Positions 19,683 through 32,478 of a stretch of 54,162 nucleotides of DNA are shown here, in pieces. Made by a program: the position numbers and the translations under genes. How positions within the stretch are numbered: position 1 is the first letter of the stretch; every line of letters begins with the position of its first letter. The notes under the pieces were generated by a model. That model saw nothing but the letters and a program-made list of their open reading frames with translations, was not told the origin of the DNA and ran no database searches. The DNA is from an uncultured Gammaproteobacteria bacterium (GTDB taxonomy: Bacteria; Patescibacteriota; Patescibacteriia; Magasanikbacterales; GWA2-37-8), in assembly GCA_964561035.1 (NCBI GenBank), contig CAZLNR010000003.1:3558-57719 (forward strand), read 5' to 3'.

Positions 19683-20750
19683 ATGCCAAAAATTTCCGAG
19701 GAGGTAAAGGAGAAACTGAAGGCTGCTGAAAGCGCCATTGAACAGATTAAAAATAAATTTGGAGATGGAGCTATCATGAAATTTGGCGAGGCCAAAACTA
19801 TGCAGGTTGACACCGTGCCTACAGGCTGTCTTTCACTTGATATTGCTTTGGGCGTAGGCGGAGTGCCTCGTGGACGTATTATTGAAATTTACGGACCTGA
19901 AGCAAGTGGTAAAACCACGCTCGCACAGCACATCGTGGCTGAAGTGCAAAAATTGGGCGGCATTGCTGCGTTTGTTGACGCCGAGCATGCCTTAGACCCG
20001 GATTATGCCCGCAAAATTGGTGTAAAAGTAGATGAGTTATTAATTTCTCAACCCGATACTGGTGAACAGGCACTTGATATCGTGGAAACTTTAGTACGTT
20101 CCAATGCAGTTGATGTTATCGTAGTAGACTCAGTTGCTGCCCTGGTGCCAAAAGCGGAAATTGAAGGTGAAATGGGTGATTCTCACATGGGCTTGCAAGC
20201 GCGCCTTATGAGCCAAGCTCTTCGCAAACTTACTGGTATTATCAGCAAATCCAAAACCGTAGTTATTTTCATCAACCAGATCAGAATGAAAATCGGTGTG
20301 ATGTTTGGCAATCCAGAAACCACTACTGGCGGTAATGCTCTTAAATTTTATTCATCTCTCCGTGTGGAAGTACGCCGTGCTGCTCAAATAAAACAAGGAG
20401 ATAAAATTATCGGCAACCGTGTTAAAGCCAAAGTTGTAAAAAACAAAGTCGCTCCCCCATTCCGCACATGTGAATTTGATATCATGTACAACGAGGGTAT
20501 TTCAATCTCAGGAGATGTGTTGGACAATGGCGTAATTTATAAAGTCATAAACAAATCCGGAAACTCTTACAGCTATAAAGAAGAAAAATTGGGCGTTGGC
20601 AGAGAAAACGCCAAGAAATTCTTAAGAGACAATCCAAAGCTTATTAAAACAATTTCCAAAGATATTTGGGAAGTTGTAGAGAAAGGCGAAGCTCCGGAAG
20701 AAGAATCCCCTGATACTAACGACGAGGTTCCTCCTCCAACCGAAGAATAA
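19683..20750 (+). CDS. recA: Recombinase RecA
   Basis: GPEASGKTT Walker [10 protein letters not shown], and the typical RecA length with an acidic tail. Confidence 0.98.
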
Positions 20751-20757
20751 CAAAAAA

Positions 20758-20785
20758 CCCTCTCAGGTACTGAGAGGGTTTTTAA
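20758..20785. terminator. Bidirectional rho-independent terminator between the convergent recA and mgtC-like genes
   Basis: CCCTCTCAG-gta-CTGAGAGGG (9-bp stem), preceded by AAAAAA and followed by TTTTT. Confidence 0.85.
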
Positions 20786-20795
20786 TTTATATATT

Positions 20796-21254
20796 TTATT
20801 TCAGCTCATCCTTATTAAGATCTTTTTTGTATTTTCTATCATCAAACATAAATATCGCTAAAACCAAAAAGCTTGCAACTATAGACAGGATATAATAACG
20901 AACTCCGACGGCCATTCCTATGGCAGCTACCATCCATAAACCAGCGGCGGTAGTAAGCCCCTCTACCCTATTCTCTTTATGTAAAATTGTGCCTGCACCC
21001 AAAAATCCAATACCTACTACAATTTGAGATGCTATACGAGATATATCAGCGCCAAATGCAGTTATGGATAACAGAGTAAAAAGAGTTGAACCGCCGGCAA
21101 CCAATGCGTAGGTGCGAGGGCCGGCCGATTTTCCTCTATTTTCACGCTGCCACCCCAAAATCCCTCCTAAAAATAAAGAGAGGACTACATGTAAAGCTAG
21201 AAATAACTCATTCATATATAATAATTTATATTCACAACTACTATATAATACCAC
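20796..21254 (-). CDS. MgtC/SapB family membrane protein
   Basis: GGILGWQRE...GPRTYALV...GIGFLGAGTIL...GLTTAAGLW. The likely start is MNELF at 21215. Confidence 0.85.
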   Translation of the reverse strand: MVLYSSCEYKLLYMNELFLALHVVLSLFLGGILGWQRENRGKSAGPRTYALVAGGSTLFTLLSITAFGADISRIASQIVVGIGFLGAGTILHKENRVEGLTTAAGLWMVAAIGMAVGVRYYILSIVASFLVLAIFMFDDRKYKKDLNKDELK

Positions 21255-21486: not shown

Positions 21487-21560
21487 CGGGGTATGGCTCA
21501 ATTGGCTAGAGCACCTGGTTTGGGACCAGGGGATTGTGGGTTCAAGTCCCACTACCCCGA
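21487..21560 (+). tRNA. tRNA-Pro (TGG)
   Basis: Acceptor CGGGGTA/TACCCCG, anticodon loop TTTGGGA, T-arm GTGGG-TTCAAGT-CCCAC. Its last 3 nt belong to the island core site. Confidence 0.92.
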
Positions 21561-23069
21561 CAACACGGAACATCTATAATTTTTAAAGGAATTAACATTT
21601 TGGTCGGTCAAACGTACGGCCACGTTTTTGGCGTAACCACCAACAATTTTAAAACCCCCCACCCACAACCACGACATTTTTCTTCCCCCGAGGCGGCGGT
21701 TCGTTCCGTGCTCTGCCACAAATGATTTTATTTCATAAAAATCATTCGACACCGCCAATTTTTCCGCATGGTGAGCGGCTTTCCAGAATTCACGCATGGG
21801 TTCGATCCACAAAACCCCTTTTCTTCTCAAAGCAGACCTTTTTTGATGAAGGTCTGCTTTTGTTTTAATCAATTCCTCTTTTTTTAAGAGGTAGATTGAT
21901 TTTTCTATAGTATTATCTAAATAGGAATCAACCAGTTTATTTAACCTCTGCTCTATTTCTTGGGTTTTGGTTTCAAGGCTTTGGGAAAAAGAAATATTGT
22001 CATTTTTTAATTCTTTTTCCCATTTCTCTATCTGAGCAAGCCCTTGGCTATACCAGTCATCAGAAATGGCAACAGCTTTGATTTCTGCTTTAATCTGTTC
22101 CGCAAGTTTGTTTTCTTGAAGATATTTTTGTGAGCACGGGCCTAATCTTTTTGTGCAACGATAATAACGGTAAGTTCCACCGTGGCCATGGGCAAATTGG
22201 GCAGTGATGGCCGCGCCGCATTCTTGGCAAGAAAAAAGGCCGCAAAAAGGAAAATCATGACTATCTTTTTTCTTGCGAGGGCGGGATTTGCTTTTGAGTA
22301 TTTTTTGTACGGTTTCAAATGTCTTACTATCCACCAGAGCAGGAAATTTGCCCTCGTAGGCTTCTCCGTTGTGTTGAATAATGCCAAGGTAGGCTTTGTT
22401 GGTCAGAAGCCGAAAAATTCCTGCTTTCACTAGGGGCTTGCCTACACTACTCGCCACGCCCCAAAAACTTAGGCGTTCGGAAAGGCTTCGCAGAGTATGG
22501 TTATGAGTAGCAAATTCTTGAAAGGCTTTAGCTACTATTCTGGCTTTGAGCGGGTCAGGTTCAATATTTCTTGTTTTTGGATTGTTAATATATCCAAATG
22601 GGGCTTTGGTAGGCCATTCGCCGCGCCTAAGTTTTTGGCGAACGCCACGCTTTACATTTTCGCTTAGATTGTCGGAATAATATTTTGATTGCCCAAAGGC
22701 TACTTGGAGCATGAAAAGTCCTTGCGGGGTTGGCTCAAACCAAAAAGTGGGAAAGCGCAAAGAAACTATTTTTTCTATGTCTATACTATATATAATCTGC
22801 CCTCCGTCTATGCTGTTTCTAGCAAGTCTATCCGGATGCCAGGCAAGCAGACCTACAGGCTCTTTGCTCTTTTGTACTTCGTTCATCATTTCATTAAAGA
22901 CTTCTCGGCCGGGTTTCTTTGCGCTTTTACTTTCTATAAAGGTTTGAGCAATCAAAATATTTTCTCTTTTTGCAAACTCAGACAGTTCGGCCAGCTGGGC
23001 TTCTATGCTCATGACCTGCCTTTCTTCATCCTCGGTGCTTTTGCGGACATAGAGAAAATATTTTGTCAT
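21552..23069 (-). CDS. Large serine recombinase (phage-integrase type): resolvase catalytic domain, recombinase domain, zinc beta-ribbon, coiled coil.
   Basis: MTKYFLYVRKSTEDEERQ..SIEAQ...HPDRLARN (catalytic Ser/Arg motifs); GEWPTKAPFGY; CGLFSCQECGA...YYRC zinc ribbon. The start is taken at ATG 23069 because the track's 23180 start adds a non-homologous leader. The 3' ~150 nt lie inside repeat A and the ORF ends inside tRNA-Pro. Confidence 0.88.
   Translation of the reverse strand: MTKYFLYVRKSTEDEERQVMSIEAQLAELSEFAKRENILIAQTFIESKSAKKPGREVFNEMMNEVQKSKEPVGLLAWHPDRLARNSIDGGQIIYSIDIEKIVSLRFPTFWFEPTPQGLFMLQVAFGQSKYYSDNLSENVKRGVRQKLRRGEWPTKAPFGYINNPKTRNIEPDPLKARIVAKAFQEFATHNHTLRSLSERLSFWGVASSVGKPLVKAGIFRLLTNKAYLGIIQHNGEAYEGKFPALVDSKTFETVQKILKSKSRPRKKKDSHDFPFCGLFSCQECGAAITAQFAHGHGGTYRYYRCTKRLGPCSQKYLQENKLAEQIKAEIKAVAISDDWYSQGLAQIEKWEKELKNDNISFSQSLETKTQEIEQRLNKLVDSYLDNTIEKSIYLLKKEELIKTKADLHQKRSALRRKGVLWIEPMREFWKAAHHAEKLAVSNDFYEIKSFVAEHGTNRRLGGRKMSWLWVGGFKIVGGYAKNVAVRLTDQNVNSFKNYRCSVLSG
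21558..21704. repeat. Inverted repeat arm A (147 bp), the perfect reverse complement of 23179..23325. Similarity resumes at 21708-21719 after an indel.
   Basis: Manual base-by-base comparison found no mismatch. The arm starts with the core site. Confidence 0.9.
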
Positions 23070-23113
23070 ACTCCTTAGGTTAAATGTAAAGCGTGGCGTA
23101 AAATTGGCTGTGT

Positions 23114-23132
23114 GTTCCGACTTAATCGGAAC
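23114..23132. promoter_or_regulatory. 19-bp palindrome GTTCCGA-cttaa-TCGGAAC, 45-63 nt upstream of the recombinase ATG. It is a candidate operator or accessory site.
   Basis: Direct reading. It shares the CGGAAC/GTTCCG string with the core site. Confidence 0.4.
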
Positions 23133-23178
23133 GTGGCAGAGCATGGCAACACTTTGGTGTTGGGGCGCCTCTGCGCCC

Positions 23179-23325
23179 ACGAACCGCCGCCTCGGGGGAA
23201 GAAAAATGTCGTGGTTGTGGGTGGGGGGTTTTAAAATTGTTGGTGGTTACGCCAAAAACGTGGCCGTACGTTTGACCGACCAAAATGTTAATTCCTTTAA
23301 AAATTATAGATGTTCCGTGTTGTCG
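23179..23325. repeat. Inverted repeat arm A' (147 bp), ending in the internal inverted core site C2 (23307-23325)
   Basis: Perfect reverse complement of 21558..21704. It is preceded (23133-23178) by a copy of the recombinase 3' end plus a 31-nt insertion containing two hairpins. Confidence 0.9.
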
Positions 23326-23544
23326 AAAATCCTGAACGACGTACGAATGTATTTTGAAACGATTTATTAGCTAGGGGGCTAATGTGTAGGGGCTTTGCCC
23401 CTACAACCCCACAAAATTTCGGCGGGCAAAAAGGAAGGGGTTAGGGGAAGGAATTTTTGCCCGCTGGTGGCGACGATTTCGGAAACCCTACCATTTGTTC
23501 GCCGAAGGGGTGTTGTTTCGTGCACGTTTCACGTGCGCGCCGCC
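23307..23544. repeat. Inverted repeat arm B (~214 bp near-identical, plus a ~24-nt diverged extension). It looks G+C-richer than the flanks and is hairpin-dense. Its partner is 32210..32449.
   Basis: Manual alignment to the reverse complement of 32235..32449 gives identity except for 3 substitutions and a ~30-nt variable patch (23392-23420). The extension keeps a hairpin with a different stem sequence. Confidence 0.88.
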
Positions 23545-23550
23545 ACACAA

Positions 23551-26500
23551 TTACCTCACTTTCAATTTACGATGCACAAAATCAAATATTCTGTGCTTTA
23601 CATAATCTTTCAAATCACGATTTGAATCAAGTTTTTTATATAAATCAAAGTGATTATTGACCATCCCAATCAATTCATCCTGAAACACCGCATCAAATTT
23701 GATTTTGGCCGCTTCACGTGTATTATTTCTAACCGCACCCTCTACTCCTTCGTTCTCTAATAATCGTTTACTTAAATTATTTAATATAATTCTATCATCT
23801 CCAGAAAAATTTGTACCAAATTTCTCATTTACATCCTTAATAATCTTTGACAACAACTCTTTTTCCTCTTCTTGTTCACTTCTACCTCGCCCATCAATCG
23901 GCTCAATTACTCCATCAATATTTTCCAATTCTATTTTTGTCTCACTGGTCTTAGATATTTTATATGATTCCATATCCACACTTTCTAACACTTCAAATGG
24001 CAATCGTTCTTTAATCACCGGCAATTTACGAATTAAAAAACGAACAAACACATATAATTTCTCCAAACTCGTGGCTTCAAAAGTAATAATTTGGGCAATA
24101 AAAGCATACTTACGAATATAGTCCTGTAATTTACTTCTAAAATCCTCTTGCTCCTCAGACAAATACTGTTTAAATCTTACAGCAACACCATCAAGAAAAC
24201 TATTTAAAACCGATGGCTTTGCTCCGGCAAAATAATCAGTAACAAAATGCTCAATCTCATCCTCACTAAACATTTTAAAATTCAAAATATCTCGTTCCAA
24301 ATCGTGCAAAATATTCGGGTCGGTGGCTTCCGAAAGAATAGTGGTAGTGTAATATGGCTGGAACGATTCTTTAATATCATCCGCATCATTTACAAAATCA
24401 AGTACAAATACTTCTTCTTTATTTGGACACGTGCGATTTAACCGACTCAATGTCTGAACTGCATTCACTCCTCCCAATTTTTTGTCCACATACATCACTG
24501 TCAGTAATGGCTGATCAAAACCGGTCTGAAACTTCTCCGCTACAATCAAAAATTTATACTCGTCCTTTTTAAACTCTTCCGCAGTATTTTTTTCCGGCAC
24601 ACCATTCATTTGGCCTTCGGTATATTCTAGCCCACCATCTTTAACCGTGCCAGAAAAGGCCACCATGGCCTTGAAAGGATAGCTGTGGCGCTTTAAATAA
24701 GCATCCACGGCCATTTTATACCGCACAGCGTGCAAACGTGATTTGGTAACAATCATCGCTTTGGCATTGCCGTTAATTTGTTTTTCAATATTATTAATAA
24801 AATGATCCACCATTATTTCTACCTTTTTATTTATCGCATGCTCGTGACGTTCAACATAAGAAATCAACAACATTTGCGCTTTTTTCTTTTTGAATTCCGG
24901 GTCATCCTCGGCTTTTTTGAGCAAAGAAAAATATACTTGAAAAGTTGTATAATTTTTCAACGTATCCAAAATAAATTTTTCCTCAATCGCCTGCTTCATT
25001 GAATAGAGGCTAAATGGGTAAAACTTTCCATCCGACACACTACGTTGGCCAAAAATTTCCAGTGTCTTTTGTTTTGGAGTGGCGGTAAAAGCAAAAAAAC
25101 TAATATTATTTGTTTTTGCGCGACGGCTTTTCATTTCTTTGAGTACCATATCCTCGGTCGTTTCCACTTCAAAAGCCTCCTCTTCATTTTCCGCTTCGGT
25201 TAAAACCACATCTTCATCTGTATTGCTAGACGCATTCAAAACTTGTTTCAAACTTTTTGTACTCTCACCAGATTGTGAAGAATGTGCTTCGTCGATAATT
25301 ACCGCAAATTTTTTACCTGGTATTGCGTCCATATTTTCCACGATAACCGGAAACTTTTGCAAAGTAGTAATAATTATTTTTTCTCCAGCTTCTAATGCTT
25401 CTTTTAATTCTTTGGAACCTTCCACAATTGGCTTAACTACACCGGCAGTTTGCGCAAACTGCATAATCGTATTGCGTAATTGCCTGTCCAGCACACGACG
25501 ATCTGTAATTACAATCACCGAATCAAAAACTTTTTTATCTTTGGTATTATGCAACTCCGACAAGTGGTGGGCAGCCCAGGCGATGGTATTACTTTTACCA
25601 CTACCGGCACTGTGTTGGATAAGATAGCTTTTTCCTGCTCCATTTTCTCTAGCGTCGCGAACTAACCGACGAACGGTATCAAGCTGGTGGAATCGTGGGA
25701 AAATCAATGTTTCGGCAAAATATTTATGCCCTTTTGCATCAGTTTTCTCAATTTTCTCTAAATGTACAAATCTGCTAATTATTTCCAGCGCACTTTCCAC
25801 TGTCCAAATATCCTCCCATACATAGCTAGTTTTGTAACCATCAGCATTCACCGGATTGCCAGCAGAATTATTATTACCTTTATTAAATGGCAAAAAATAT
25901 GTTGCCAGCCCCGCTAATTTGGTGGTCATATATACCAACTCTGTATCAACCGCAAAATGCACCAAGCATCGCTTAAAAGATAACAATTTTTCTTTAGGGT
26001 CACGGTCAGTACGATATTGTTGAATGGCATTTTTTACCGATTGGCCGGTGAGTTGGTTTTTGAGTTCAATGGTAAAAATCGGCAACCCATTCAAAAATAT
26101 CACCATATCAATGGAGTTTTCATTTTTGTCGCTATATTTTACCTGTCGCATTACACTTAAAATATTGCTTTCAAATTGTTTTTTTACTTCCTCATTCAAG
26201 CTGGTCTCTGGCTTAAAATAAGCTAAATCAAACCGCGAGCCGTGGTCGCTTAATCCGCTTCGAAGCACATCCAGAACCCCGCGCGCTTGGATTTCTTCGT
26301 CTAACCGAGTTAAAAATCGCTGCTCCACATCCGCACCATGCTGATCTACCAATTTCTGCCATTCTTTTTCTTGGGACTTTTTTATAAATTCCAAAACAAG
26401 CTCAGCATCAAAACACAAAGCTTTATCATAAACATCAGGCTTACGTTCCAGAAAGCCATTATTTTTTACCAAATATCCCTCAATAAAATCCTCGAACCCT

Positions 26501-26562
26501 TTTTCTGCGGTGTTTGTTTTCATATTATTTTTTTTCAAATATTTCACGTTGGGCTGGTTCAA
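23551..26562 (-). CDS. hsdR: Type I restriction enzyme R subunit (HsdR)
   Basis: N-terminal nuclease region; SF2 motor motifs GSGKSNTIAW (motif I), VIIDEAHSSQ (DEAH, motif II) and TATP (motif III); ~1000 aa. The likely start is MKTNT at 26523, 1 nt after the orf311 stop. Confidence 0.93.
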   Translation of the reverse strand: MNQPNVKYLKKNNMKTNTAEKGFEDFIEGYLVKNNGFLERKPDVYDKALCFDAELVLEFIKKSQEKEWQKLVDQHGADVEQRFLTRLDEEIQARGVLDVLRSGLSDHGSRFDLAYFKPETSLNEEVKKQFESNILSVMRQVKYSDKNENSIDMVIFLNGLPIFTIELKNQLTGQSVKNAIQQYRTDRDPKEKLLSFKRCLVHFAVDTELVYMTTKLAGLATYFLPFNKGNNNSAGNPVNADGYKTSYVWEDIWTVESALEIISRFVHLEKIEKTDAKGHKYFAETLIFPRFHQLDTVRRLVRDARENGAGKSYLIQHSAGSGKSNTIAWAAHHLSELHNTKDKKVFDSVIVITDRRVLDRQLRNTIMQFAQTAGVVKPIVEGSKELKEALEAGEKIIITTLQKFPVIVENMDAIPGKKFAVIIDEAHSSQSGESTKSLKQVLNASSNTDEDVVLTEAENEEEAFEVETTEDMVLKEMKSRRAKTNNISFFAFTATPKQKTLEIFGQRSVSDGKFYPFSLYSMKQAIEEKFILDTLKNYTTFQVYFSLLKKAEDDPEFKKKKAQMLLISYVERHEHAINKKVEIMVDHFINNIEKQINGNAKAMIVTKSRLHAVRYKMAVDAYLKRHSYPFKAMVAFSGTVKDGGLEYTEGQMNGVPEKNTAEEFKKDEYKFLIVAEKFQTGFDQPLLTVMYVDKKLGGVNAVQTLSRLNRTCPNKEEVFVLDFVNDADDIKESFQPYYTTTILSEATDPNILHDLERDILNFKMFSEDEIEHFVTDYFAGAKPSVLNSFLDGVAVRFKQYLSEEQEDFRSKLQDYIRKYAFIAQIITFEATSLEKLYVFVRFLIRKLPVIKERLPFEVLESVDMESYKISKTSETKIELENIDGVIEPIDGRGRSEQEEEKELLSKIIKDVNEKFGTNFSGDDRIILNNLSKRLLENEGVEGAVRNNTREAAKIKFDAVFQDELIGMVNNHFDLYKKLDSNRDLKDYVKHRIFDFVHRKLKVR

Positions 26563-27460
26563 TATCTAAAATTATTAATTTTGGTTTTTGATATAAAGAA
26601 GTCCGTAGTATCTCAGCAGTTATAGTAACTAAACTTGTTTTATAAAATCCTCTATAATCTTCGGTGCCTTTACCATCAGACGGAAGCGCAATTAAGTCAC
26701 GGTGCTTTGGGTCAACGTCCTCTAATCTAAATCGCATTGTATCACCCCTTGAAGCCTGCAAAGCAATTATAGAACCCCTCAATTCCATAATTGCACCATT
26801 ATACATGTCTGGAAGTATCTTCTGGTCATCACCGAGATAATCTCCAAAATTTTCCTGCGTAATTTCAACTGGCTCTAAAAAATCTGGTTTATCACTAAAC
26901 TTCACACTACTCATATCAGTTTCCGCTTCAATAAATGGTTTGAGGATTTTCTTAAATTTATTTCTTTTGACAATTCTATGTAAACGTTTGGTCGGCTCGA
27001 CAGGCATCGGCCTTTCGTTATACGTAGTTTGAATCTTATTTTTCTGATATTTGGCAAAACCAAGACACATAAGTAAATATGATCCAAGTCCGTAGGCAAC
27101 TGCCTTTGCAATATCATAATCAACGGGGTTCTTACCTGCAAAATCATTTAAACTTCTGCGATACTCTAAAAATTTAGCCAGGGCTTCGCCGCCTATCATC
27201 TGGAAAAACTCCAGCGCATGTTGTCCGTGCAAAAATAAATCAGCTGTAGCAACAATCAAAACTTGATTATCGATAATTATCGACCCTTCGCGCGCTCTTA
27301 TTGCCTTAACTTTTACATTACCTTTAATCAGGGCAACACCTCCAATTAATTGGCGTAAAAGTTCCTCAAAACCAATTAACGATTCACCTAAAACTGACAG
27401 GTCTACAGGAGAACTATTTGTCGGTGTGTATTTTATATAAAACTTTGCTTCACATTCCAT
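26525..27460 (-). CDS. Hypothetical protein (orf311) embedded between hsdS and hsdR, with no recognisable domain
   Basis: 311-aa ORF with codon style like its neighbours. TAA-T-ATG junctions at both ends (hsdS stop 27464-27462 / ATG 27460; its own stop 26527-25 / hsdR ATG 26523) indicate translational coupling. Confidence 0.75.
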   Translation of the reverse strand: MECEAKFYIKYTPTNSSPVDLSVLGESLIGFEELLRQLIGGVALIKGNVKVKAIRAREGSIIIDNQVLIVATADLFLHGQHALEFFQMIGGEALAKFLEYRRSLNDFAGKNPVDYDIAKAVAYGLGSYLLMCLGFAKYQKNKIQTTYNERPMPVEPTKRLHRIVKRNKFKKILKPFIEAETDMSSVKFSDKPDFLEPVEITQENFGDYLGDDQKILPDMYNGAIMELRGSIIALQASRGDTMRFRLEDVDPKHRDLIALPSDGKGTEDYRGFYKTSLVTITAEILRTSLYQKPKLIILDIEPAQREIFEKK

Positions 27461-27461
27461 A

Positions 27462-28805
27462 TTATACTTTTACCTTCCCAGTAACCACATTATAGATTAG
27501 GGACGATTTATATTCTTGTAGTAATTCTATTGATTTTTGAATTTTCTCACTACATTCATCAATTTTAGCAATTTTTTCATCCAAAAACTTCGCAATTTTT
27601 TCTTGTTCTTCAATTTTTGGAATAGTAGAAATTATATTTTTTAAATCATCTATTGTTAGCTGGTTAATAGTTGATGTAGCTGATGACCTAAGCTGAAAGA
27701 AAAATAGTTCCGACTTAAAAAAGTATGCCATATATCTCCAGTAACTACTTCTAAAAATAGACATAAACACTCCGAAAGTATTACCTTCGCCAGGCCCATT
27801 AATAACGGCGCTTTTACCAATTAACGCAGCGCTTCCATTTCGTGAGCATATTAAGATGTCCCCTTTTTTTGTTTTTAGATTCTTGGGTATTGATTTTTTA
27901 ACATAAATATTATCATTTAATTCAATAGTATTATTTTGAATGTTTGAAGAGCGAAGAACCAGTGTGCCTTCAGCTTCATCGGTAACATCCTCCGGACTAT
28001 AGGTCAAGCCAATAATGGCCTGACCAACAAATTTTAATTTCTCCACCCTCCACCCCTTCGGCACTTTCCCAATCCATCCCACTCCACTATCTACCAGTGT
28101 TGCATCTTCACCCAATCCACGTGTTACAGCCCGGTTAATCACCGCTGCACGCTTCTCCTTTAACAACTCAACCAGCTTTTGTTTTTGCTCAATGCTTTTA
28201 TGAATACTTGCAGTTTTAGCATCTAGATAATCGGCAATTTTTTTCTGAATTTCACGAGAAGGATTAACAAAGTATTCTGAAAAATAATTATATAAATCTA
28301 AATTTTGTATACCTGTGGTTTGTTTGATCGATCTAACGTTTAACCGCGTTGAATATGCGGCGGATAAAAAATAAATAAAATATCTCGGCTCAACCTCCTC
28401 TTTAACATCAATCACCTCAATAAAATTGGCACACACCATCTTTTCTACAGAATTAAACAAAATTGCCCTACCTACAGGTTGTTTTTCTCCACCACCTGAT
28501 TTTTCAAGTAAAATATTTCCCTTTTTTAACAGCTTCCTTCTTTGATCATCTTTGGAAACATTCCGAACTGTTTCAATTTCTCCGAATCCAAAATTTTCAT
28601 AATTAAAATCAGCAACCCTGAGGCACATTACATCATTAACATCAGCCTTAGGATCTTCACCCCATATACCAGAAAAATGATGTTTAATAAATTTTTTTGG
28701 TTGTATCACCTTCCAGTTCTTTGGAACCATTCCAATCCAGTCAACTCCAGAATCTTGATAATCTGGATATTTTTGAATTTGTTTTTTTAATTCTATTTTT
28801 TGCAT
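27462..28805 (-). CDS. hsdS: Type I restriction-modification specificity subunit (HsdS) with two target-recognition domains
   Basis: Two variable halves separated by the conserved helix KQKLVELLKEKRAAVINRAVTRGL, ending in the conserved SIELLQEYKSSLIYNVVTGKVKV. Confidence 0.9.
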   Translation of the reverse strand: MQKIELKKQIQKYPDYQDSGVDWIGMVPKNWKVIQPKKFIKHHFSGIWGEDPKADVNDVMCLRVADFNYENFGFGEIETVRNVSKDDQRRKLLKKGNILLEKSGGGEKQPVGRAILFNSVEKMVCANFIEVIDVKEEVEPRYFIYFLSAAYSTRLNVRSIKQTTGIQNLDLYNYFSEYFVNPSREIQKKIADYLDAKTASIHKSIEQKQKLVELLKEKRAAVINRAVTRGLGEDATLVDSGVGWIGKVPKGWRVEKLKFVGQAIIGLTYSPEDVTDEAEGTLVLRSSNIQNNTIELNDNIYVKKSIPKNLKTKKGDILICSRNGSAALIGKSAVINGPGEGNTFGVFMSIFRSSYWRYMAYFFKSELFFFQLRSSATSTINQLTIDDLKNIISTIPKIEEQEKIAKFLDEKIAKIDECSEKIQKSIELLQEYKSSLIYNVVTGKVKV

Positions 28806-28811
28806 ACAAAA

Positions 28812-30875
28812 TTATAGCTTTTTTAACATCTCCAATAATTCATTCTCCACCCCTTCAATCTCACCTTCAATCTCTGTCAATTCTCGTGGTGGAATATATT
28901 TGTAAAAATACCGAGTAAATGGGATTTCATAACCTACCTTACCCACCTCGTTATCCTTATGGTCGCGCACGGTTTCATTTATCCAAGCATCTGGCGCAAA
29001 TGGTTTTACTTCCTTTTCAAAATATTTGTAAACATCCATACCCCATGGCACATTCTCGCTGTCGCGGAGCTCGCTATCCGGTTCTGGCTTGCGTTCACTA
29101 TCCATACACACATCTGCAGTCTCATCGCGCTCGCTTAACTCCTGCAAAATAGTTTTAAGTATTGGAGCTGGAACTTTTATTTTGACTTGCTTAAATTTAT
29201 TTTCAAGCAACCCCAAAAACTCTTCGCGATTTTTATATAGTTTATCGCCAATACTATCTAATACTTTATAAATCTCAGCGCGTAGATTTTGCCATTCTTT
29301 ATTTTCTGTTTCACCTGCCGTGCCTTTCTTTTTACTTGGAACATCATTTTTCATTTTTTCCGTTTCTTTTAATATTGCCAACCGCTCTACATTGGCTTGA
29401 AAATTTAATTTTAATGGTCGTTCGATGATAATCTGACGAAAAGCAAAATCAGTGGTATTAAAAATTTTGCAATATTCATTTTCTGTAAATGAATTATATA
29501 ACTCCAAAATCTTAGCCCGATTTTCATCGGATATTACATGGCGTTTATTGCCAAGCGACTTACGCATTTTTTCAAAAAATATTCTGGCATCAATGAGCTG
29601 TACCTTATTTTGTCTTTTCTTTTCTTTACGATTGCTCAAAAACCATACATACGTATTAATACCGGTGTTGTAAAACAGTTGATCTGGCATCGCCACAACC
29701 GCATCTAGCCAATCATGCTCTAGTATCCAACGACGAATTTCGCTTTCTCCGCTGCCAGCGTCGCCCGTAAACAGCGGCGAACCATTAAATACAATAGCCA
29801 AACGCGAACCACCATCAATCGGGTTACGCATTTTAGAAATAAGATGCTGTAAGAATAAAAATTGCCCATCGGAAATTCTAGGCAAACCAGCGCCAAACCG
29901 GCCGGCAAAACCGCGCTCGGCTTCTTTTTCTACCGCCTCTTTGTCTTTTTTCCAATCCACGCCGAATGGAGGATTTGTCAGACAATAATCGAACTGCTCA
30001 CCAATAAATTGATCATTGGTAAGTGTACTGGCTTTGGAATGGTCCTTATCTCCACCTTTGATTTTATCCGGATCATCGCCTTTAATAAGCATGTCGGATT
30101 TGCAGATAGCGTATGTAACCGGATTCAATTCTTGCCCATACAAATATATGTCAGCATCTTTATTGATAACAGACAAAATATGCTCTTTGCTTGTCGTTAA
30201 CATTCCCCCTGTACCACTAGCGCAATCATAAATTGTTTTAATGATATGTTTTTTGTTTAGCAATTCTTTGTCAGGCGCGAACAAAATTTCCACCATCGTT
30301 TTGATAACTTCGCGTGGGGTGTAGTGCTCACCGGCAGTCTCGTTTGATTGCTCATTAAATTTACGGATTAATTCTTCAAAGATAGAACCCATTTCATGAT
30401 TACTGGTGACGCGCGGATGTAAATCAATTTTGTTAAATTCTTTTAAAATCAGATATAATAAATTTCCACCTTCCAAACGGGATAATTGTTTTCCAAAATC
30501 AAACTTGGCAAAAATTTCTTTAATATTGTCGCTAAATCCATCAATAAAATGCTGTAAATTTTTGGCAATATTTTTTGGATCTTCCAGTAGTTTGGCAAAA
30601 TCATACGGCGAGGTATTGTAAAAACCTACCTTGCTAGCCGATTTAAGAATTGGATCAAGCTCTACTTTGCCATGAAACCTGTTATACTGCTCCAACACTG
30701 CCGGTTTAGTATCGGCCAACACGGAATCCAACCGCCTCAAAACAACGAGTGGTAAAACAACATCCTGATATTCGTACTGTTTCCAGCCACCACGTAAAAG
30801 CTCTGCGATTTGCCAGATAATACCAGCTTTGGAATTGAAGTTATTCATATGTATATTATTTTGAATTACCGTCAA
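28812..30875 (-). CDS. hsdM: Type I restriction-modification N6-adenine DNA methyltransferase subunit (HsdM), long form
   Basis: AdoMet motif [10 protein letters not shown], catalytic NPPFG ([10 protein letters not shown]) and an HsdM N-terminal helical domain. An ATG at 30848 is an alternative to the track's start at 30875. Confidence 0.93.
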
Positions 30876-32037
30876 TAAATAAATCTAAATACTCTTTGAG
30901 AAAAAAAATGCGGTTGCGAGAAAAACCAGTTTTTTCAATAAAAAGACCAAGTCGCTCAAATTCATTGGCCAGCGTAGTAGCAGTTTGAATACTAGCATTC
31001 ATCAATTCTTTAATGTCTTTAACTGTAACACCCGGCTGAGAAAACAATTGTATTAACAGTTCTTTTCCGGCCTTCTGACGCTTAATACCCATGCCAGATT
31101 CAATTGTACTTTCATACCGTTTGCGCAAAGCAATAATTTTTTCAAATGTTTCTTTGCCTGTTTTTGCAGTTTGGCTAATACCAGTGAGAAAAAAACGAAT
31201 CCAATGCTCTATGTCGCCTGTCTGTCTAACCATAGACAAAGCATCGTAATATTTAGTTCGATTTTTCTCAAAGAAATCAGATATATATAAAGTTGGTTTT
31301 TTGAGAATACCTAAATCAACCAGCTGAAGAGTAATTATCAGACGGCCAATACGACCATTACCATCAAGAAATGGATGGATAGTTTCAAATTGGTAATGTG
31401 AAATAGCGGCTTTAATTAAATCTGGGATTTCCAAATTTTTATTGTGCCAAAACTTTTCCAAATCTCCAAGCAGCTCTGGAACATCTGTATGGTGCGGGGG
31501 AATAAAAACAGCATCGGCAAGAGTAGCTCCACCAAGCCAATTTTGACTGTGACGAATTTCTCCTGGCTGTTTACTATAACCACGAACACCAGAAAGCAAT
31601 ATTTTATGAGAATCTTTTACTAATCGAATTGATAATGGCAATTGTTCCAATTTTTTAACTGAATAATTGATAGCTTGAATATAGTTATCAATTTCTTCCC
31701 AGTCATTACGTTTTTCTGGCGCCAACTCTTCGCTTGATAACACAGCTTCATCTAAATTAGTTTTTGTACCCTCAATACGACTGGACTGTGTGGCTTCTTT
31801 GGCCACATGCATACGGATAAAAAAATCTACATCTGGCACAAGAGTAGAATATGCGTTAAGTTCCCCTAAATAACGCATAGCATCTGAAAGTAGCAAGTTA
31901 ATGCGTTTATCTTCCCAATCGAAAGGTTTATTTATGGGCGTTGGCACAAAACTTTTATAACTATTTTGCTGGCGATATGTACCTGCGATGAATTTTGATT
32001 TTGACATAGTAATTAGATTAAGATAATCTATATTCAA
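30856..32037 (-). CDS. fic: Fic family protein (AMPylase-type) with an N-terminal autoinhibitory-helix motif and a C-terminal wHTH
   Basis: Fic motif [12 protein letters not shown]. The inhibitory [S/T]xxxE[G/N] motif is present as SSRIEG upstream of the core. The true start is probably ATG 32007, because the track start at 32037 is TTG at the predicted transcription start. Confidence 0.9.
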
Positions 32038-32066
32038 AGAATATCACTTAACTTGGAATTTGTCAA
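32038..32066 (-). promoter_or_regulatory. Candidate operon promoter for fic-hsdM-hsdS-orf311-hsdR: TTGACA, 17-nt spacer, TATTCT
   Basis: The reverse complement reads TTGACA-aattccaagttaagtga-TATTCT. It lies inside the segment bracketed by the B repeats. Confidence 0.45.
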
Positions 32067-32209
32067 GACATATTACACACAGTTTACCCCAGTATACATA
32101 ATTTGGCTCATTTTAACGGATCTTGGGAGCCTGCCATAACCCAACGCGCACGCACGGGTGGGCAGGAGCAAGCGCGTTTCTAGCAAATAACACCATAATC
32201 AATCGGTCG

Positions 32210-32449
32210 GGCGGCGCATTCGCCAAAGCGAATACGAAACAACACCCCTTCGGCGAACAAATGGTAGGGTTTCCGAAATCGTCGCCACCAGCGGGCAAAA
32301 ATTCCTTCCCCTAACCCCTTCCTTTTTGCCCGCCGAGATTGTACTGGGTTATAGGGGGCAGAGCCCCTACACATTAGCCCCCTATCTAATAAATCGTTTC
32401 AAAATACATTCGTACGTCGTTCAGGATTTTCGACAATTCGGAACATCTA
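32210..32449. repeat. Inverted repeat arm B', the partner of 23307..23544, ending in the distal core site C3 (32431-32449)
   Basis: See arm B. ATTCGC-caaa-GCGAAT at 32218-32233 replaces the GCACGT-ttc-ACGTGC hairpin of the other copy. Confidence 0.88.
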
Positions 32450-32478
32450 AAAACATTCTTACAACAAAGAATGTTTTT
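32449..32478. terminator. Strong hairpin terminator (AAAAACATTCTT-acaaca-AAGAATGTTTTT) abutting the island's right end
   Basis: 12-bp stem including the A/T runs; bidirectional form. No upstream plus-strand gene is present unless the island is removed, in which case it would follow tRNA-Pro. Confidence 0.75.

What the first reader, a model, noticed from the sequence alone, without database searches (positions are those of the whole stretch)
21558..32449. tRNA-Pro island with three copies of one recombination core; the internal inverted copy is an exact attP-like hybrid of the two junctions
**What the sequence shows**
- Core C1, 21558-21576: CGACAACACGGAACATCTA. Its first 3 nt are the end of tRNA-Pro.
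- Core C2, 23307-23325: the same 19-mer on the opposite strand.
- Core C3, 32431-32449: CGACAATTCGGAACATCTA, on the same strand as C1.
- To the right of C1, and on the equivalent side of inverted C2, the DNA is identical for 147 nt (21558-21704 equals the reverse complement of 23179-23325).
- To the left of C3, and on the equivalent side of C2, the DNA is near-identical for ~214 nt (32235-32449 equals the reverse complement of 23307-23520).

**What this implies**
C1 reads tRNA|A and C3 reads B|chromosome. The internal site reads B|A, which is exactly what attP should look like if C1 and C3 are attL and attR.

The only recombinase is a large serine recombinase, lying between A and A'. The fic/Type I RM operon lies between B and B'.

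**Consequences (inference)**
- Excision by C1 x C3 would give a ~10.9-kb circle carrying two inverted ~360-bp site-bearing repeats. These would separate a 1.5-kb recombinase segment from an 8.7-kb RM segment. That geometry matches the yeast 2-micron plasmid with its FLP/FRT repeats.
- While integrated, either segment could flip, by site-specific or homologous recombination.

I am not aware of this layout being described for serine-integrase islands.
Basis: partly seen in the sequence, partly recalled or inferred. Interest (0 to 1): 0.85.

Follow-up and report, generated by a model that had tools for sequence, protein, structure and literature searches.

The report
tRNA island keeping a spare attP
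This is a 10.9-kb gene island inserted at the end of a tRNA-Pro gene by a large serine recombinase, and like about a hundred relatives from many bacterial phyla it keeps a second, intact, inverted copy of its own insertion site inside the island, a layout I could not find described.

Summary
- C1, C2 and C3, the 147-nt perfect inverted repeat A/A' and the ~206-nt B/B' repeat (95%) sit where stated.
- Independent unitigs of the same strain from three sequencing runs break exactly at these repeats.

**The att assignment holds.**
- C1 = tRNA|A (attL), C3 = B|chromosome (attR), C2 = B|A (an intact attP, inverted).

**The layout is family-wide.** Among 168 related loci from many phyla:
- 142 have the repeat bracketing the recombinase gene.
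- 121 have a convergent tRNA at the recombinase 3' end, and one more has a tmRNA there.
- 99 have the conserved attP left arm upstream of the gene.
- 37 show all three sites.
- The tRNA T-loop motif lies 5 bp closer to the crossover than the same motif in attP, as expected for serine-integrase attB versus attP half-sites.
- The recombinase reading frame has no stop codon of its own and reads across the crossover.

**Flipping is not the resting behaviour.**
- In about 95% of loci the recombinase 3' end faces the tRNA.
- One element seen in several samples had a single arrangement.
- Rare relatives have tRNAs on both sides of the recombinase gene, so the spare attP does get used.

**Still open:** no circle, no empty site and no role for the spare site were shown.

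**Classification:** a new variant of a known kind.

The parts
21487..21561 (+). tRNA-Pro(UGG), the left half of the original attB. Its last 3 nt (C71 G72 A73) begin the core.
   Evidence: ARAGORN; Rfam tRNA, 70 bits.
21558..21576 (+). C1, the attL core (tRNA | core | arm A).
   Evidence: D13; three-site alignment.
21558..21704 (+). Arm A including the core. It is the antisense of the last ~49 codons of the recombinase gene and is 100% identical to the reverse complement of 23179-23325.
   Evidence: I1.
21552..23069 (-). Large serine recombinase gene, 505 aa. The ORF runs through arm A and core C1 and stops at a TAG inside the tRNA-Pro acceptor stem.
   Evidence: Pfam Resolvase, Recombinase and Zn_ribbon_recom; ORF list; family alignment ending in WSG; stop-codon statistics.
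21829..21860 (+). Terminator-like hairpin on the tRNA-sense strand, inside the recombinase gene and antisense to it. It could stop tRNA-operon read-through.
   Evidence: This is a consensus scan only, not evidence of function.
23101..23178 (+). Decayed inner continuation of the inverted copy of the recombinase 3' end.
   Evidence: tblastn of recombinase residues 437-504 against 23101-23325, 73% identity; alignment and translation.
23179..23325 (+). Arm A' including core C2: a perfect inverted copy of arm A, lying upstream of the recombinase start.
   Evidence: I1.
23307..23325 (-). C2 core. Read on the minus strand the site is B | core | A, an intact attP.
   Evidence: nhmmer match to the family attP-left model at 23362-23320.
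23326..23521 (+). Arm B', the proximal copy. Its core-proximal ~40 nt carry the family-conserved attP left half-site.
   Evidence: I2, I3.
23551..32037 (-). Cargo operon: hsdR 23551-26562, 311-aa unknown 26525-27460, hsdS 27462-28805, hsdM 28812-30875, Fic 30856-32037.
   Evidence: Pfam; the same genes are called on Logan contigs of the same strain.
32038..32066 (-). Sigma-70-like promoter (TTGACA-17-TATTCT with TG) just upstream of Fic, inside the unique cargo segment.
   Evidence: This is a consensus scan only.
32234..32430 (+). Arm B, the distal copy: 95% identical to the reverse complement of B', with the differences confined to one patch.
   Evidence: I2, I3; nhmmer match at 32394-32436.
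32431..32449 (+). C3, the attR core (arm B | core | chromosome). Its TT at 32437-38 replaces the CA of C1 and C2, which places the crossover to the left of that position.
   Evidence: the junction is independently present in Logan unitigs L089 and L090.
32449..32478 (+). A/T-flanked hairpin, probably the displaced terminator of the tRNA operon and the right half of the original attB.
   Evidence: Read directly from the sequence. The scan did not flag it, because the stem is GC-poor.

Best explanation
**What it is.** The segment 21558-32449 is the integrated form of a small cargo island.
- It belongs to a very large, cross-phylum family driven by one large serine recombinase (LSR).
- The family's attP lies across the stop-less 3' end of the recombinase gene itself.

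**How it got here.**
- The LSR recombined that attP with the last bases of tRNA-Pro. The crossover falls within C71-G72-A73, most likely G72-A73.
- This produced attL (C1, tRNA|A) and attR (C3, B|chromosome).

**The spare site.**
- Members of the family carry a second full attP, in inverted orientation, on the other side of the recombinase gene.
- Here that site is C2, and it survives integration intact.
- The free form must therefore have the recombinase gene bracketed by two inverted attP copies.

**What the spare site does.**
- Under the ordinary serine-integrase rule only attP x attB react, so C2 is idle in the resting island. The recombinase and cargo segments stay in one orientation.
- C2 remains a live substrate that needs no directionality factor. 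It can recombine with a second tRNA attB.
- That reaction leaves the recombinase module between two convergent tRNA genes and separates it from the cargo.

**Other family features.**
- The long arms beyond the ~50-bp site are kept identical by concerted evolution.
- After integration the recombinase gene is convergent with the tRNA operon and its C-terminal tail changes. I infer that this damps recombinase activity.

**Shown:** the anatomy, the site identities, the family-wide conservation, and relatives in which both attP copies have been consumed.

**Inferred:** the free form, the activity of C2, the damping, and the adaptive reason for keeping two attP copies. That last point remains open.
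For: **Anatomy in the window:**

**Family size:** more than 7,000 protein clusters at E<=1e-20, at 60-85% identity, from Patescibacteria, Omnitrophota, Elusimicrobia, Acidobacteria and others.

**Counts across 168 related loci**:
- The inverted repeat brackets the recombinase gene in 142.
- A convergent tRNA sits at the recombinase 3' end in 121: Pro 59, Gln 16, Glu 12, Ser 8 and others. One further locus (L071) abuts a tmRNA instead.
- The conserved attP left arm lies upstream of the gene in 99, and its distal inverted copy is also present in 37.
- Site-by-site alignment of 19 loci gives tRNA|A, B|A and B|x with a 3-19-nt core. The core is the last acceptor base, the discriminator and CCA.

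**Half-site offset:** GTTC[GA] at -23 in attP versus -18 in the tRNA. This matches the rule that the DBD2 motif lies 4-5 bp closer to the centre in attB (PMC11722253).

**Reading frame across the crossover:**
- The stop codon lies at or beyond the core in 120 of 124 loci.
- The arm is stop-free in the recombinase frame in 125 of 129 loci, against 30 and 25 of 129 in the other two frames.

**Relatives with both attP copies used:**
- L043 has tRNA-Pro(GGG) and tRNA-Pro(CGG) flanking the recombinase gene.
- L144 has tRNA-Leu(UAA) and tRNA-Leu(CAA).
- L032 has the tRNA-Pro 3' end on both sides, with arms differing at 4 positions, so it is not a fold-back artefact.

**Stability:** one element on 8 contigs, 7 examined, has one arrangement.

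**Reality of the repeats:** Logan unitigs, and the same layout on contigs of 216 kb to 6.2 Mb (L031, L033, L067, L069).
Against: - No free circular form, circle junction or empty attB was found. Integration and excision are deduced from anatomy only.
- If the free form has two equivalent attP copies, integration should use either one. Yet about 95% of loci used the copy at the recombinase 3' end. That bias is unexplained.
- An idle site should decay, as the inner part of the duplicate did. Instead C2 is conserved across phyla. So it very probably has a role this explanation does not name.
- Five loci have a B-type arm at the recombinase 3' end. They look like tandem arrays, which would require attL to serve as an attB. 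That means the strict attP x attB rule may not hold fully in this family.
- No directionality factor was identified, so how excision happens is unknown.
Confidence: 0.55

Rival explanations
1. **Self-inverting recombinase cassette.** In this family attL keeps enough attB character to react with the internal inverted attP.
- C1 x C2 would then flip the 1.5-kb recombinase segment.
- In the common orientation the gene is convergent with the tRNA operon and silenced.
- In the flipped orientation it is driven by tRNA read-through and regains its attP-state tail.
- That would give a burst of recombinase that flips it back or excises the island.
- The spare attP would thus be a stochastic on/off switch for mobility, with no directionality factor needed.
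For: - The recombinase frame is open across the core, so its tail depends on context.
- The convergent arrangement with the tRNA holds in 121 loci.
- A plus-strand terminator-like hairpin lies inside the recombinase gene.
- Seven loci have a tRNA on the recombinase 5' side. L042 and L043 share one flank (tRNA-Ala and tRNA-Pro(CGG)) with the recombinase gene in opposite orientations.
- Tandem-array-like loci imply that attL can act as a target.
- No conserved directionality-factor gene is present: the recombinase module holds only the recombinase, and the cargo differs in every locus.
Against: - The three flipped-looking loci that can be read on both sides have tRNAs on both sides. That fits use of a second attB, not a simple flip.
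- No locus shows tRNA-A-recombinase-A'-B'-cargo unambiguously.
- One arrangement only was seen across samples.
- Characterised serine integrases do not recombine attL with attP (established knowledge; model described in PMC11722253).
- In the window the arms are identical, so short-read data cannot show isomers.
Confidence: 0.2
2. **Regulatory or architectural site only.** C2 is never meant to recombine.
- It binds recombinase upstream of the recombinase gene.
- It autoregulates the gene, or in the free form it pairs with the other attP in an unproductive tetramer that loops out the gene.
- The long identical arms are a by-product of gene conversion.
For: - SPbeta integrase forms stable tetramers that hold two attP sites together. 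The authors of that study judged these tetramers most likely unable to recombine (PMC11722253).
- C2 always lies on the promoter side of the recombinase gene.
- Orientation is stable.
Against: - The core lies 92-522 nt upstream of the start codon, and the distance varies. It therefore does not overlap a promoter at a fixed position.
- Relatives with both copies consumed show that the site does recombine.
- A mere operator would not need the full B|core|A composition.
Confidence: 0.15
3. **2-micron-like flip-flop.** This is the reader's analogy taken literally.
- The excised circle uses recombination between its two inverted ~360-bp repeats to interconvert isomers or to amplify copy number.
- In the chromosome, both segments flip.
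For: - The deduced geometry of the circle: two inverted repeats separating a 1.5-kb and an 8.7-kb segment.
- Cargo genes lie on either strand relative to the recombinase gene in different elements, roughly 12 opposite and 5 same.
Against: - There are no replication genes. Cargo is as small as 1.1 kb and differs in every locus.
- No circular contigs were found.
- A synapse of two attP sites was judged most likely unproductive for the one serine integrase examined.
- The arms are symmetric, so flipping the cargo changes nothing in cis. The cargo promoter candidate lies inside the unique segment.
- The difference in cargo strand is between unrelated cargos, so it does not show isomers of one element.
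Confidence: 0.05
4. **Phase-variable restriction-modification.** The B/B' repeats exist to invert or switch the Type I RM operon, as in hsdS shufflons.
For: - A Type I RM operon lies between the inverted repeats, next to a recombinase.
Against: - There is a single hsdS, with no alternative half-genes and no internal inverted repeats.
- The same B/B' arrangement flanks unrelated cargo. Examples are a P-type ATPase, an ArsP permease, a glycosyltransferase, SMODS-SLATT and GmrSD.
- The repeats are att arms shared with attP.
Confidence: 0.02
5. **Artefact or coincidence.** The repeats come from chimeric assembly or binning, or from two unrelated nested insertions.
For: - Most homologue contigs end at the repeats, and many are only 1.8-2.4 kb long. 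Assemblers clearly struggle with this region.
Against: - The same strain is recovered at 100% identity from three runs, with unitig breaks exactly at the repeat edges.
- The same layout occurs on contigs of up to 6.2 Mb and in more than 100 loci from independent studies.
- The repeat ends coincide with the crossover to the nucleotide.
Confidence: 0.01

Closest known systems
Large serine integrase elements with a simple attP, such as SPbeta SprA, Listeria A118/LI, phiC31 and Bxb1 prophages
   Same: - Three-domain recombinase: Resolvase, Recombinase and zinc ribbon.
- Distant sequence match to SPbeta integrase structures.
- Hybrid attL and attR around a short identical core.
- A quasi-palindromic attP of about 50 bp, and an attB half-site whose outer motif lies 5 bp closer to the centre.
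   Different: - Two attP copies in inverted orientation bracket the recombinase gene, and one survives integration.
- The repeat arms run 90-435 nt and are kept identical.
- The recombinase ORF has no stop codon of its own and reads through the crossover.
- The target is the extreme 3' end of many different tRNAs.
- No directionality factor is evident.
- Cargo is 1-9 kb of accessory or defence genes rather than a phage.
tRNA-associated genomic islands and tycheposons (Hackl et al., bioRxiv 10.1101/2020.12.28.424599)
   Same: - Small cargo-carrying islands at tRNA genes that move accessory and defence genes.
- A minority of tycheposons carry a large serine recombinase.
   Different: - Those elements are overwhelmingly driven by tyrosine recombinases (910 of 937) and often carry replication genes. 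From my own knowledge, they are flanked by direct repeats of the tRNA 3' part.
- Here the shared core is only 3-19 nt, the enzyme is an LSR, and an inverted internal attP is present.
Yeast 2-micron plasmid (FLP/FRT)
   Same: - The deduced excised circle would have two long inverted repeats, each carrying the recombination site.
- The repeats would split the circle into two unique segments, one of which encodes the recombinase.
   Different: - FLP is a tyrosine recombinase that acts on identical sites, on an autonomously replicating plasmid, for copy-number amplification.
- Here the enzyme is a serine integrase. By the known rule it should not recombine two attP sites.
- There is no replication function, and the circle itself has not been observed.
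Integrase-mediated chromosomal inversions between tRNA genes in Thermococcales (Cossu et al. 2017, PMC5495485)
   Same: - A mobile-element integrase recombining tRNA-gene att sequences at more than one chromosomal place.
- This is the closest analogue for relatives L043, L144 and L032, where the recombinase module sits between two convergent tRNA genes.
   Different: - That system is archaeal and uses an SSV-type tyrosine integrase.
- I saw only the title and abstract.
- In this family the second reaction is made possible by a resident spare attP.
attP inside a reading frame: SSV-type 'suicidal' integrases (PMC7253208) and integration-dependent immunity in mycobacteriophages (from my own knowledge)
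   Same: - The crossover lies inside a gene of the element, so integration changes the gene product.
   Different: - In those systems the enzymes are tyrosine integrases, and the gene is split or loses a degradation tag.
- Here only the C-terminal tail beyond the conserved GTNRRL motif is exchanged.
- Whether that affects activity has not been tested.

Membership tests
Large serine recombinase (serine integrase) mobile elements | Recombinase with an N-terminal resolvase catalytic domain, a recombinase (DBD1) domain and a zinc-ribbon (DBD2) domain. | tested here: met
   - Pfam PF00239 (1.2e-21), PF07508 (1.5e-09) and PF13408 (5.1e-09) on the 505-aa product.
- R9 and S11 are invariant in the N-terminal YxRKS motif across 29 aligned homologues.
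- Distant match to SPbeta integrase chains.
Large serine recombinase (serine integrase) mobile elements | The integrated element is bounded by hybrid attL and attR sites that share a short identical core with attP and attB. | tested here: met
   - C1 = tRNA|core|A, C3 = B|core|x and C2 = B|core|A in the window.
- The same holds in the 18 relatives aligned site by site with it.
- An empty attB was not recovered.
Large serine recombinase (serine integrase) mobile elements | The outer (DBD2) motif lies 4-5 bp closer to the centre in attB half-sites than in attP half-sites. | tested here: met
   - GTT[CT][GA] starts at -23 in 50 of 86 attP left arms.
- GTTC[GA] starts at -18 in 65 of 86 tRNA half-sites.
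- The rule is quoted from PMC11722253.
Large serine recombinase (serine integrase) mobile elements | One attP per element, which is consumed by integration. | tested here: not met
   A second intact inverted attP remains inside the island, here and in at least 99 relatives.
Large serine recombinase (serine integrase) mobile elements | A cognate recombination directionality factor for excision. | tested here: inconclusive
   - No conserved small gene exists: the recombinase module holds only the recombinase.
- Cargo is not shared between loci.
- ORFs in the arms show no coding signal.
- Directionality factors are too diverse for absence to be proved.
2-micron-type plasmid (FLP/FRT) | An autonomously replicating circle. 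| tested here: not met
   - No replication genes are present in the window's island or in the relatives' cargo.
- No circular contigs were found.
2-micron-type plasmid (FLP/FRT) | A tyrosine recombinase that recombines the two inverted repeats to give isomers. | tested here: not met
   - The enzyme is a serine recombinase.
- No isomers were seen on the 7 examined contigs of one element, 4 of which carry the full cargo context.
- Orientation is biased about 95:5.
2-micron-type plasmid (FLP/FRT) | Two long inverted repeats dividing the circle into two unique segments. | not testable with these tools
   This follows logically from C1 x C3 excision, but the circle itself was not observed.
DNA invertase / phase-variation switches (Hin/Gin, shufflons, hsdS switching) | Both orientations of the segment coexist in populations, and inversion changes gene expression or gene structure. 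| tested here: not met
   - One arrangement was found on all contigs of one element.
- There is a single hsdS without alternative modules.
- The arms are symmetric and the candidate cargo promoter lies inside the segment.
- Read-level data were not available.
tRNA-targeting integrative islands | Insertion at the 3' end of a tRNA gene, with the tRNA reconstituted. | tested here: met
   - tRNA-Pro is intact at C1.
- 121 of 168 relatives abut a tRNA. One further locus (L071) abuts a tmRNA.

The most novel reading that the evidence does not exclude
The second, inverted attP is an adaptive control device that replaces a directionality factor. I see three possible versions:
- **A switch.** Recombinase-catalysed inversion of the recombinase cassette between attL and the internal attP toggles the gene. 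One state is convergent with the tRNA operon, silenced and tail-swapped. The other is driven by the tRNA operon and is active. Bursts of mobility would then occur in a minority of cells.
- **A ready attP.** The retained attP lets an integrated copy recombine directly with a new tRNA site without prior excision.
- **A splint.** The retained attP folds a single-stranded copy of the island so that its two ends meet.

Any of these would be a new way for a serine-integrase element to control direction and mobility. It would be built from DNA geometry plus a stop-less recombinase gene that senses its own integration state.
Probability: 0.2. Interest if true: 0.85.

Novelty: new variant of a known kind. 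Interest (0 to 1): 0.7.

Why it matters
**For recombinase biology.**
- Serine integrases are valued because their logic is simple: one attP, one attB, one direction, and a separate factor to reverse.
- Here is a recombinase family with thousands of members in uncultivated phyla: Patescibacteria/CPR, Omnitrophota, Bacteroidales bins and others.
- It consistently departs from that plan in three linked ways. It has two inverted attP copies around the gene, a reading frame that crosses the crossover, and targeting of the last bases of many tRNAs.
- If the spare site controls direction or expression, it is a new regulatory principle for site-specific recombination. It would also be a possible source of self-contained, factor-free switches.

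**For microbial genomics.**
- The family moves restriction-modification, Fic, CBASS-like, GmrSD and other defence genes, as well as metabolic genes, between phyla that lack obvious conjugation systems.
- The spare site offers a ready mechanism for chromosomal inversions between tRNA genes.

**For assembly practice.** The inverted repeats explain why these genes sit at contig ends in most metagenome assemblies.

Tried and rejected
1. **Empty attB.** An exact scan of metagenome contigs for tRNA-Pro end + core + terminator gave no hit. The Logan unitigs that start at 32407 show no branch at 32431, so the two runs that carry them give no sign of an empty site. This is a weak negative.
2. **Free form.** None of the fetched contigs is circular. 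Close relatives are absent from viral contigs. L078, where the recombinase gene lies between two inverted full attP copies on an 88-kb contig with no tRNA, is the only candidate for a non-integrated arrangement.
3. **Exact look-up of the recombinase protein.** Nothing is on record. In the unitig-level Logan assemblies the gene is probably cut by arm A (inference). The flanking DsbA-like gene and the Fic gene did work.
4. **A small divergent gene reading out of A' into B'.** This was a possible directionality factor made of the recombinase tail. The frame is no more open inward of the arm than the other two frames, with medians of 18, 19 and 16 codons. Rejected.
5. **A small protein encoded in the B arm or the adjacent conserved 115 nt.** All six frames show the same identity to L088, and the frames are interrupted. 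Rejected.
6. **A palindromic CG central dinucleotide as a reason for inverted sites.**
   - Minimal cores limit the crossover to C71-G72-A73 (L017, L058).
   - The strict orientation of the recombinase gene towards the tRNA, and the non-Pro targets, favour positions 72-73 (GA, AG or CA).
   - Not resolved, so not used.
7. **Outer GTTCG motifs as accessory binding sites.**
   - The perfect A repeat does end just after a GTTCG in the close relatives. That motif is the reverse complement of the conserved Thr-Asn codons.
   - The B arm has no consistent counterpart, and distant relatives lack the motif.
   - Left as an observation.
8. **Structured RNA.** Rfam finds only the tRNAs. Folding the B arm gives z-scores of -1.3 and -2.1. 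Nothing convincing.
9. **Cargo flipping shown by shared cargo.** Only distant Fic and hsdM matches lie in opposite orientation (L037 versus the window, 26-37% identity). This is not informative.
10. **A 115-nt segment as a marker of cargo flipping.** The segment 32120-32233 lies next to the distal B arm here and next to the proximal arm in L088. That is explained equally well by arms that were once longer.
11. **Literature.** Six full-text searches found no description of this layout.

Full report
**1. Checking the observation**

- tRNA-Pro(UGG) ends at 21560/61 and is the last gene of an Ala-Phe-Pro cluster.
- The 19-mer CGACAACACGGAACATCTA begins with the last three tRNA bases at 21558 and recurs inverted at 23307-23325.
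- CGACAATTCGGAACATCTA lies at 32431-32449 in the same orientation as C1.
- 21558-21704 is the perfect reverse complement of 23179-23325, 147 nt (I1).
- 23304-23521 pairs with 32234-32452. With one indel allowed the arms are 95% identical. All differences lie in a ~50-nt patch, and the ~70 nt next to the core are identical.
- The only recombinase is a 505-aa large serine recombinase at 23069..21552 on the minus strand.
- The cargo is Fic-hsdM-hsdS-(311-aa unknown)-hsdR, on the same strand.

The repeats are not an assembly or binning artefact.
- The same strain is present at 100% identity in Logan assemblies of three runs.
- One unitig starts at 32407, which is the B|core|chromosome junction.
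- Another spans exactly 32263..23492, which is the cargo plus 30 nt of each B arm.
- That is the pattern a true inverted repeat gives in a k=31 graph.

**2. The layout belongs to a family, not to this locus**

The recombinase belongs to a very large family. More than 7,000 clusters match at E<=1e-20, and the top hits are 60-85% identical. The named members come from Patescibacteria, Omnitrophota, Elusimicrobia and Acidobacteria.

I fetched 168 related loci: 80 from species-representative genomes, 8 from ENA assemblies and 80 from JGI metagenomes. The counts are as follows.

| Feature | Loci |
|---|---|
| Inverted repeat bracketing the recombinase gene, one arm over its 3' end | 142 |
| tRNA abutting that 3' arm, convergent with the gene | 121 |
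| Conserved attP left arm upstream of the gene (profile scan) | 99 |
| Its inverted partner also present 1-9 kb further upstream | 37 |

- The bracketing repeat is usually 90-200 nt long and 97-100% identical.
- The tRNA targets are Pro 59, Gln 16, Glu 12, Ser 8, Trp 5, Arg 4 and others. One further locus (L071) abuts a tmRNA instead.
- The layout occurs on contigs of 216 kb, 640 kb and 6.2 Mb as well as on short ones.
- Most short-read contigs end at the repeats, and many homologue contigs are only 1.8-2.4 kb long. The repeats explain both facts.

**3. What the three sites are**

I aligned the three junctions in 19 complete loci, including the window. The result is the same in each:
- C1 = tRNA | core | A
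- C2 = B | core | A
- C3 = B | core | chromosome

The shared core is 3-19 nt long. It corresponds to the last acceptor-stem base(s), the discriminator and CCA: CGACCA, CAGCCA, CCACCA and so on.

The B-proximal ~40 nt are conserved across the family (consensus AAAATAGGTTCGAGCTTCGTTCAG-N7-core). The rest of both arms differs between elements.

The half-sites differ in the way serine-integrase theory predicts.
- A GTTC[GA] motif starts at -23 and -12 in the B arm.
- In the tRNA the same motif, which is the T loop, starts at -18.
- This 5-bp offset is what distinguishes attP from attB half-sites in the current structural model (PMC11722253).

The crossover can be placed closely.
- In the window, C3 has TT where C1 and C2 have CA. 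That puts the crossover to the left of position 7 of the core.
- The shortest cores among relatives (CGA in L017, CCCGA in L058) limit it to C71-G72-A73.
- I favour G72-A73, because the equivalent dinucleotide is non-palindromic in all targets and insertion orientation is strict. This is an inference.

**4. Further anatomy shared by the family**

*(a) The recombinase gene has no stop codon of its own.*
- The first in-frame stop lies at or beyond the core in 120 of 124 loci.
- Across the repeat arm (median 40 codons) the recombinase frame is stop-free in 125 of 129 loci. The other two frames are stop-free in only 30 and 25 of 129.
- Protein alignments end in "WSG", which is the reverse complement of CCCGACCA. 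They are then followed by translated antisense tRNA.
- The C-terminal tail therefore depends on what lies across the crossover. In the window it is ...SVLSG* in the integrated state and ...SVLSKILNDVRMYFETIY* in the attP context.

*(b) The arms evolve in concert.*
- The conserved protein ends at GTNRRL. The perfect repeat starts exactly at the Thr-Asn codons (ACGAAC) in the close relatives.
- The tail differs between elements but is identical between the two arms of each element.
- In the window the inverted copy continues inward for ~78 nt in decayed form. So the outer 147 nt are being kept identical while the inner part drifts.

*(c) Cargo is highly diverse.*
- It includes Type I, II and III restriction-modification, Fic, SMODS+SLATT, GmrSD, and AAA_15/21 and AAA_13 ATPases.
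- It also includes an ArsP permease, a P-type ATPase, ALAD, a glycosyltransferase and a radical-SAM enzyme.
- Almost nothing is shared between loci.
- A relative with 85% protein identity (L088) shares the tRNA, both arms and the recombinase gene at ~83% DNA identity, but has different cargo.

**5. Is anything flipping?**

- The recombinase 3' end faces the tRNA in 121 loci. Only 7 loci have a tRNA on the 5' side, and 5 have a B-type arm at the 3' end.
- One element (protein P0120) was found on 8 contigs, of which 7 were examined. All 7 have the same recombinase-to-tRNA side, and the 4 that carry the full cargo context have the same order throughout.
- The cargo strand varies between elements. 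Because the cargos are unrelated, this says nothing about inversion.

The exceptions are informative.
- **tRNAs on both sides.** L043 (tRNA-Pro GGG / CGG), L144 (tRNA-Leu UAA / CAA) and L032 have tRNAs on both sides of the recombinase gene, convergent, with no B arm.
  - Their two arms differ: 80%, 89% and 98% identity. They are therefore not fold-back artefacts.
  - This is what results if both attP copies recombine with tRNA attB sites.
  - The spare attP is therefore a usable site. The consequence is a recombinase module cut off from its cargo, probably through a chromosomal inversion.
- **Cargo or a B arm downstream of the recombinase gene.**
  - L129 and L136 carry a cargo downstream of the recombinase gene, with its own inverted arms.
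  - L045 and L129 have attP-type sites on both sides with different B arms.
  - These look like tandem arrays.
- **A possible non-integrated arrangement.** L078 has the gene between two inverted full attP copies on an 88-kb contig with no tRNA nearby.

**6. Most likely mechanism**

*Shown*
- A serine-integrase island is integrated at the 3' end of tRNA-Pro.
- Its attL, attR and an intact inverted attP are identified.
- This design is conserved across phyla.

*Inferred*
- The free form has the recombinase gene bracketed by two inverted attP copies.
- Integration uses the copy that overlaps the gene's 3' end.
- The other copy is silent under the attP x attB rule, but can fire on a second tRNA gene without any helper.
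- Integration puts the gene head-on against the tRNA operon and swaps its tail, which would damp it. A plus-strand terminator-like hairpin at 21829-21860 is consistent with this, but it comes only from a consensus scan.

*Unexplained*
- Why the 3' copy is used about 95% of the time.
- What selective role keeps the spare site intact.
- How excision occurs. No conserved candidate for a directionality factor exists.

For these reasons I give the explanation as stated 0.55. The site identities and family membership taken alone I hold at about 0.9. I give 0.2 to the rival that the recombinase cassette is a self-inverting switch. I give 0.15 to a purely regulatory or looping role.

**7. Comparison with known systems**

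- **Serine-integrase elements.** It works like one and meets their defining tests on domains, hybrid sites and half-site offset. It fails the "single attP" feature.
- **2-micron plasmid.** The resemblance is limited to the deduced geometry of the circle. The enzyme class, replication and observed isomerisation do not match.
- **Phase-variable RM system.** It is not one. There is one hsdS, and the same arms flank unrelated cargo.
- **Relatives with tRNAs on both sides.** The nearest analogue is integrase-driven inversion between tRNA genes in Thermococcales (PMC5495485; abstract only).
- **Reading frame crossing attP.** This recalls SSV-type integrases (PMC7253208) and, from my own knowledge, integration-dependent immunity in mycobacteriophages.
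- **Literature.** Six full-text searches found no description of an internal inverted attP in serine-integrase islands. The library does not hold most subscription-journal papers, so a missed description is possible.

**8. Verdict**

- The predicted circle and flipping are untested. Flipping is at best rare.
- The finding gains weight because it is the standard architecture of a huge, essentially uncharacterised recombinase family.
- I classify it as a new variant of a known kind, with interest 0.7.

Noticed in passing
window 21552-21704 (minus strand); family-wide in L001-L172: - The recombinase ORF has no stop codon of its own. It reads through arm A and the crossover core and ends inside the antisense tRNA.
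- The stop lies at or beyond the core in 120 of 124 relatives.
- The arm is stop-free in the recombinase frame in 125 of 129 loci, against about 25-30 of 129 in the other frames.
- The C-terminal tail therefore changes with integration state.
   Followed up: partly
window 23101-23178: - The inverted copy of the recombinase 3' end extends ~78 nt further inward than the perfect 147-nt repeat, but in decayed form. It translates as KLAVCSDLIG... against KLAVSNDFYEIK... in the gene.
- Identity drops sharply at the ACGAAC (Thr-Asn) codons.
   Followed up: partly
L043 940-2937; L144 9770-11610; L032 9636-11565; also L042, L057, L122, L172: - In these relatives the recombinase module lies between two convergent tRNA genes, or has a tRNA on its 5' side. 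The pairs are Pro GGG/CGG and Leu UAA/CAA.
- Their arms are more diverged (80-89%).
- Both attP copies appear to have been consumed, which implies recombinase-mediated rearrangement between tRNA genes.
   Followed up: partly
L045 9440-11641; L129 89-4883; L136; L102; L078 2430-4886: - These loci have a B-type attP arm, not a tRNA, at the recombinase 3' end.
- In L129 and L136 a cargo with its own inverted arms lies downstream of the recombinase gene.
- L078 has the gene between two inverted full attP copies on an 88-kb contig with no tRNA.
- They could be tandem arrays or a non-integrated form.
   Followed up: partly
L071 1957-2318: One relative is inserted at the 3' end of a tmRNA gene instead of a tRNA.
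   Followed up: no
window 32290-32335 and 23420-23465; B arms of about 12 relatives, e.g. L004, L045, L046, L095, L160, L162: - A strong hairpin (GCGGGCAAAAA-TTCCTTCCCCTAACCCCTTCC-TTTTTGCCCGC) with the loop motif TTCCTTCCCC recurs in the B arms of otherwise unrelated elements.
- It occurs in either orientation relative to the core.
   Followed up: partly
window 32120-32233: - A GC-rich 115-nt stretch lies just inside the distal B arm.
- It is conserved (83%) with relative L088, where it lies next to the proximal arm instead.
- No frame shows a coding signal.
   Followed up: partly
window 26525-27460 (minus strand): A 311-aa ORF with no Pfam match sits between hsdS and hsdR inside the Type I RM operon, overlapping the hsdR start. 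It is called as a gene on independent Logan contigs.
   Followed up: no
window 21829-21860 (plus strand): A 13-bp-stem terminator-like hairpin with a T run lies on the tRNA-sense strand inside the recombinase gene. It may replace the tRNA operon's displaced terminator, which is now at 32449-32478.
   Followed up: no
window 20638-20824: Sub-threshold Rfam matches (PyrG leader at 40 bits against a gathering score of 65, L10 leader, Phe leader) pile up at the 3' end of the MgtC-family gene (20796-21254) and just beyond it. They are probably chance.
   Followed up: no
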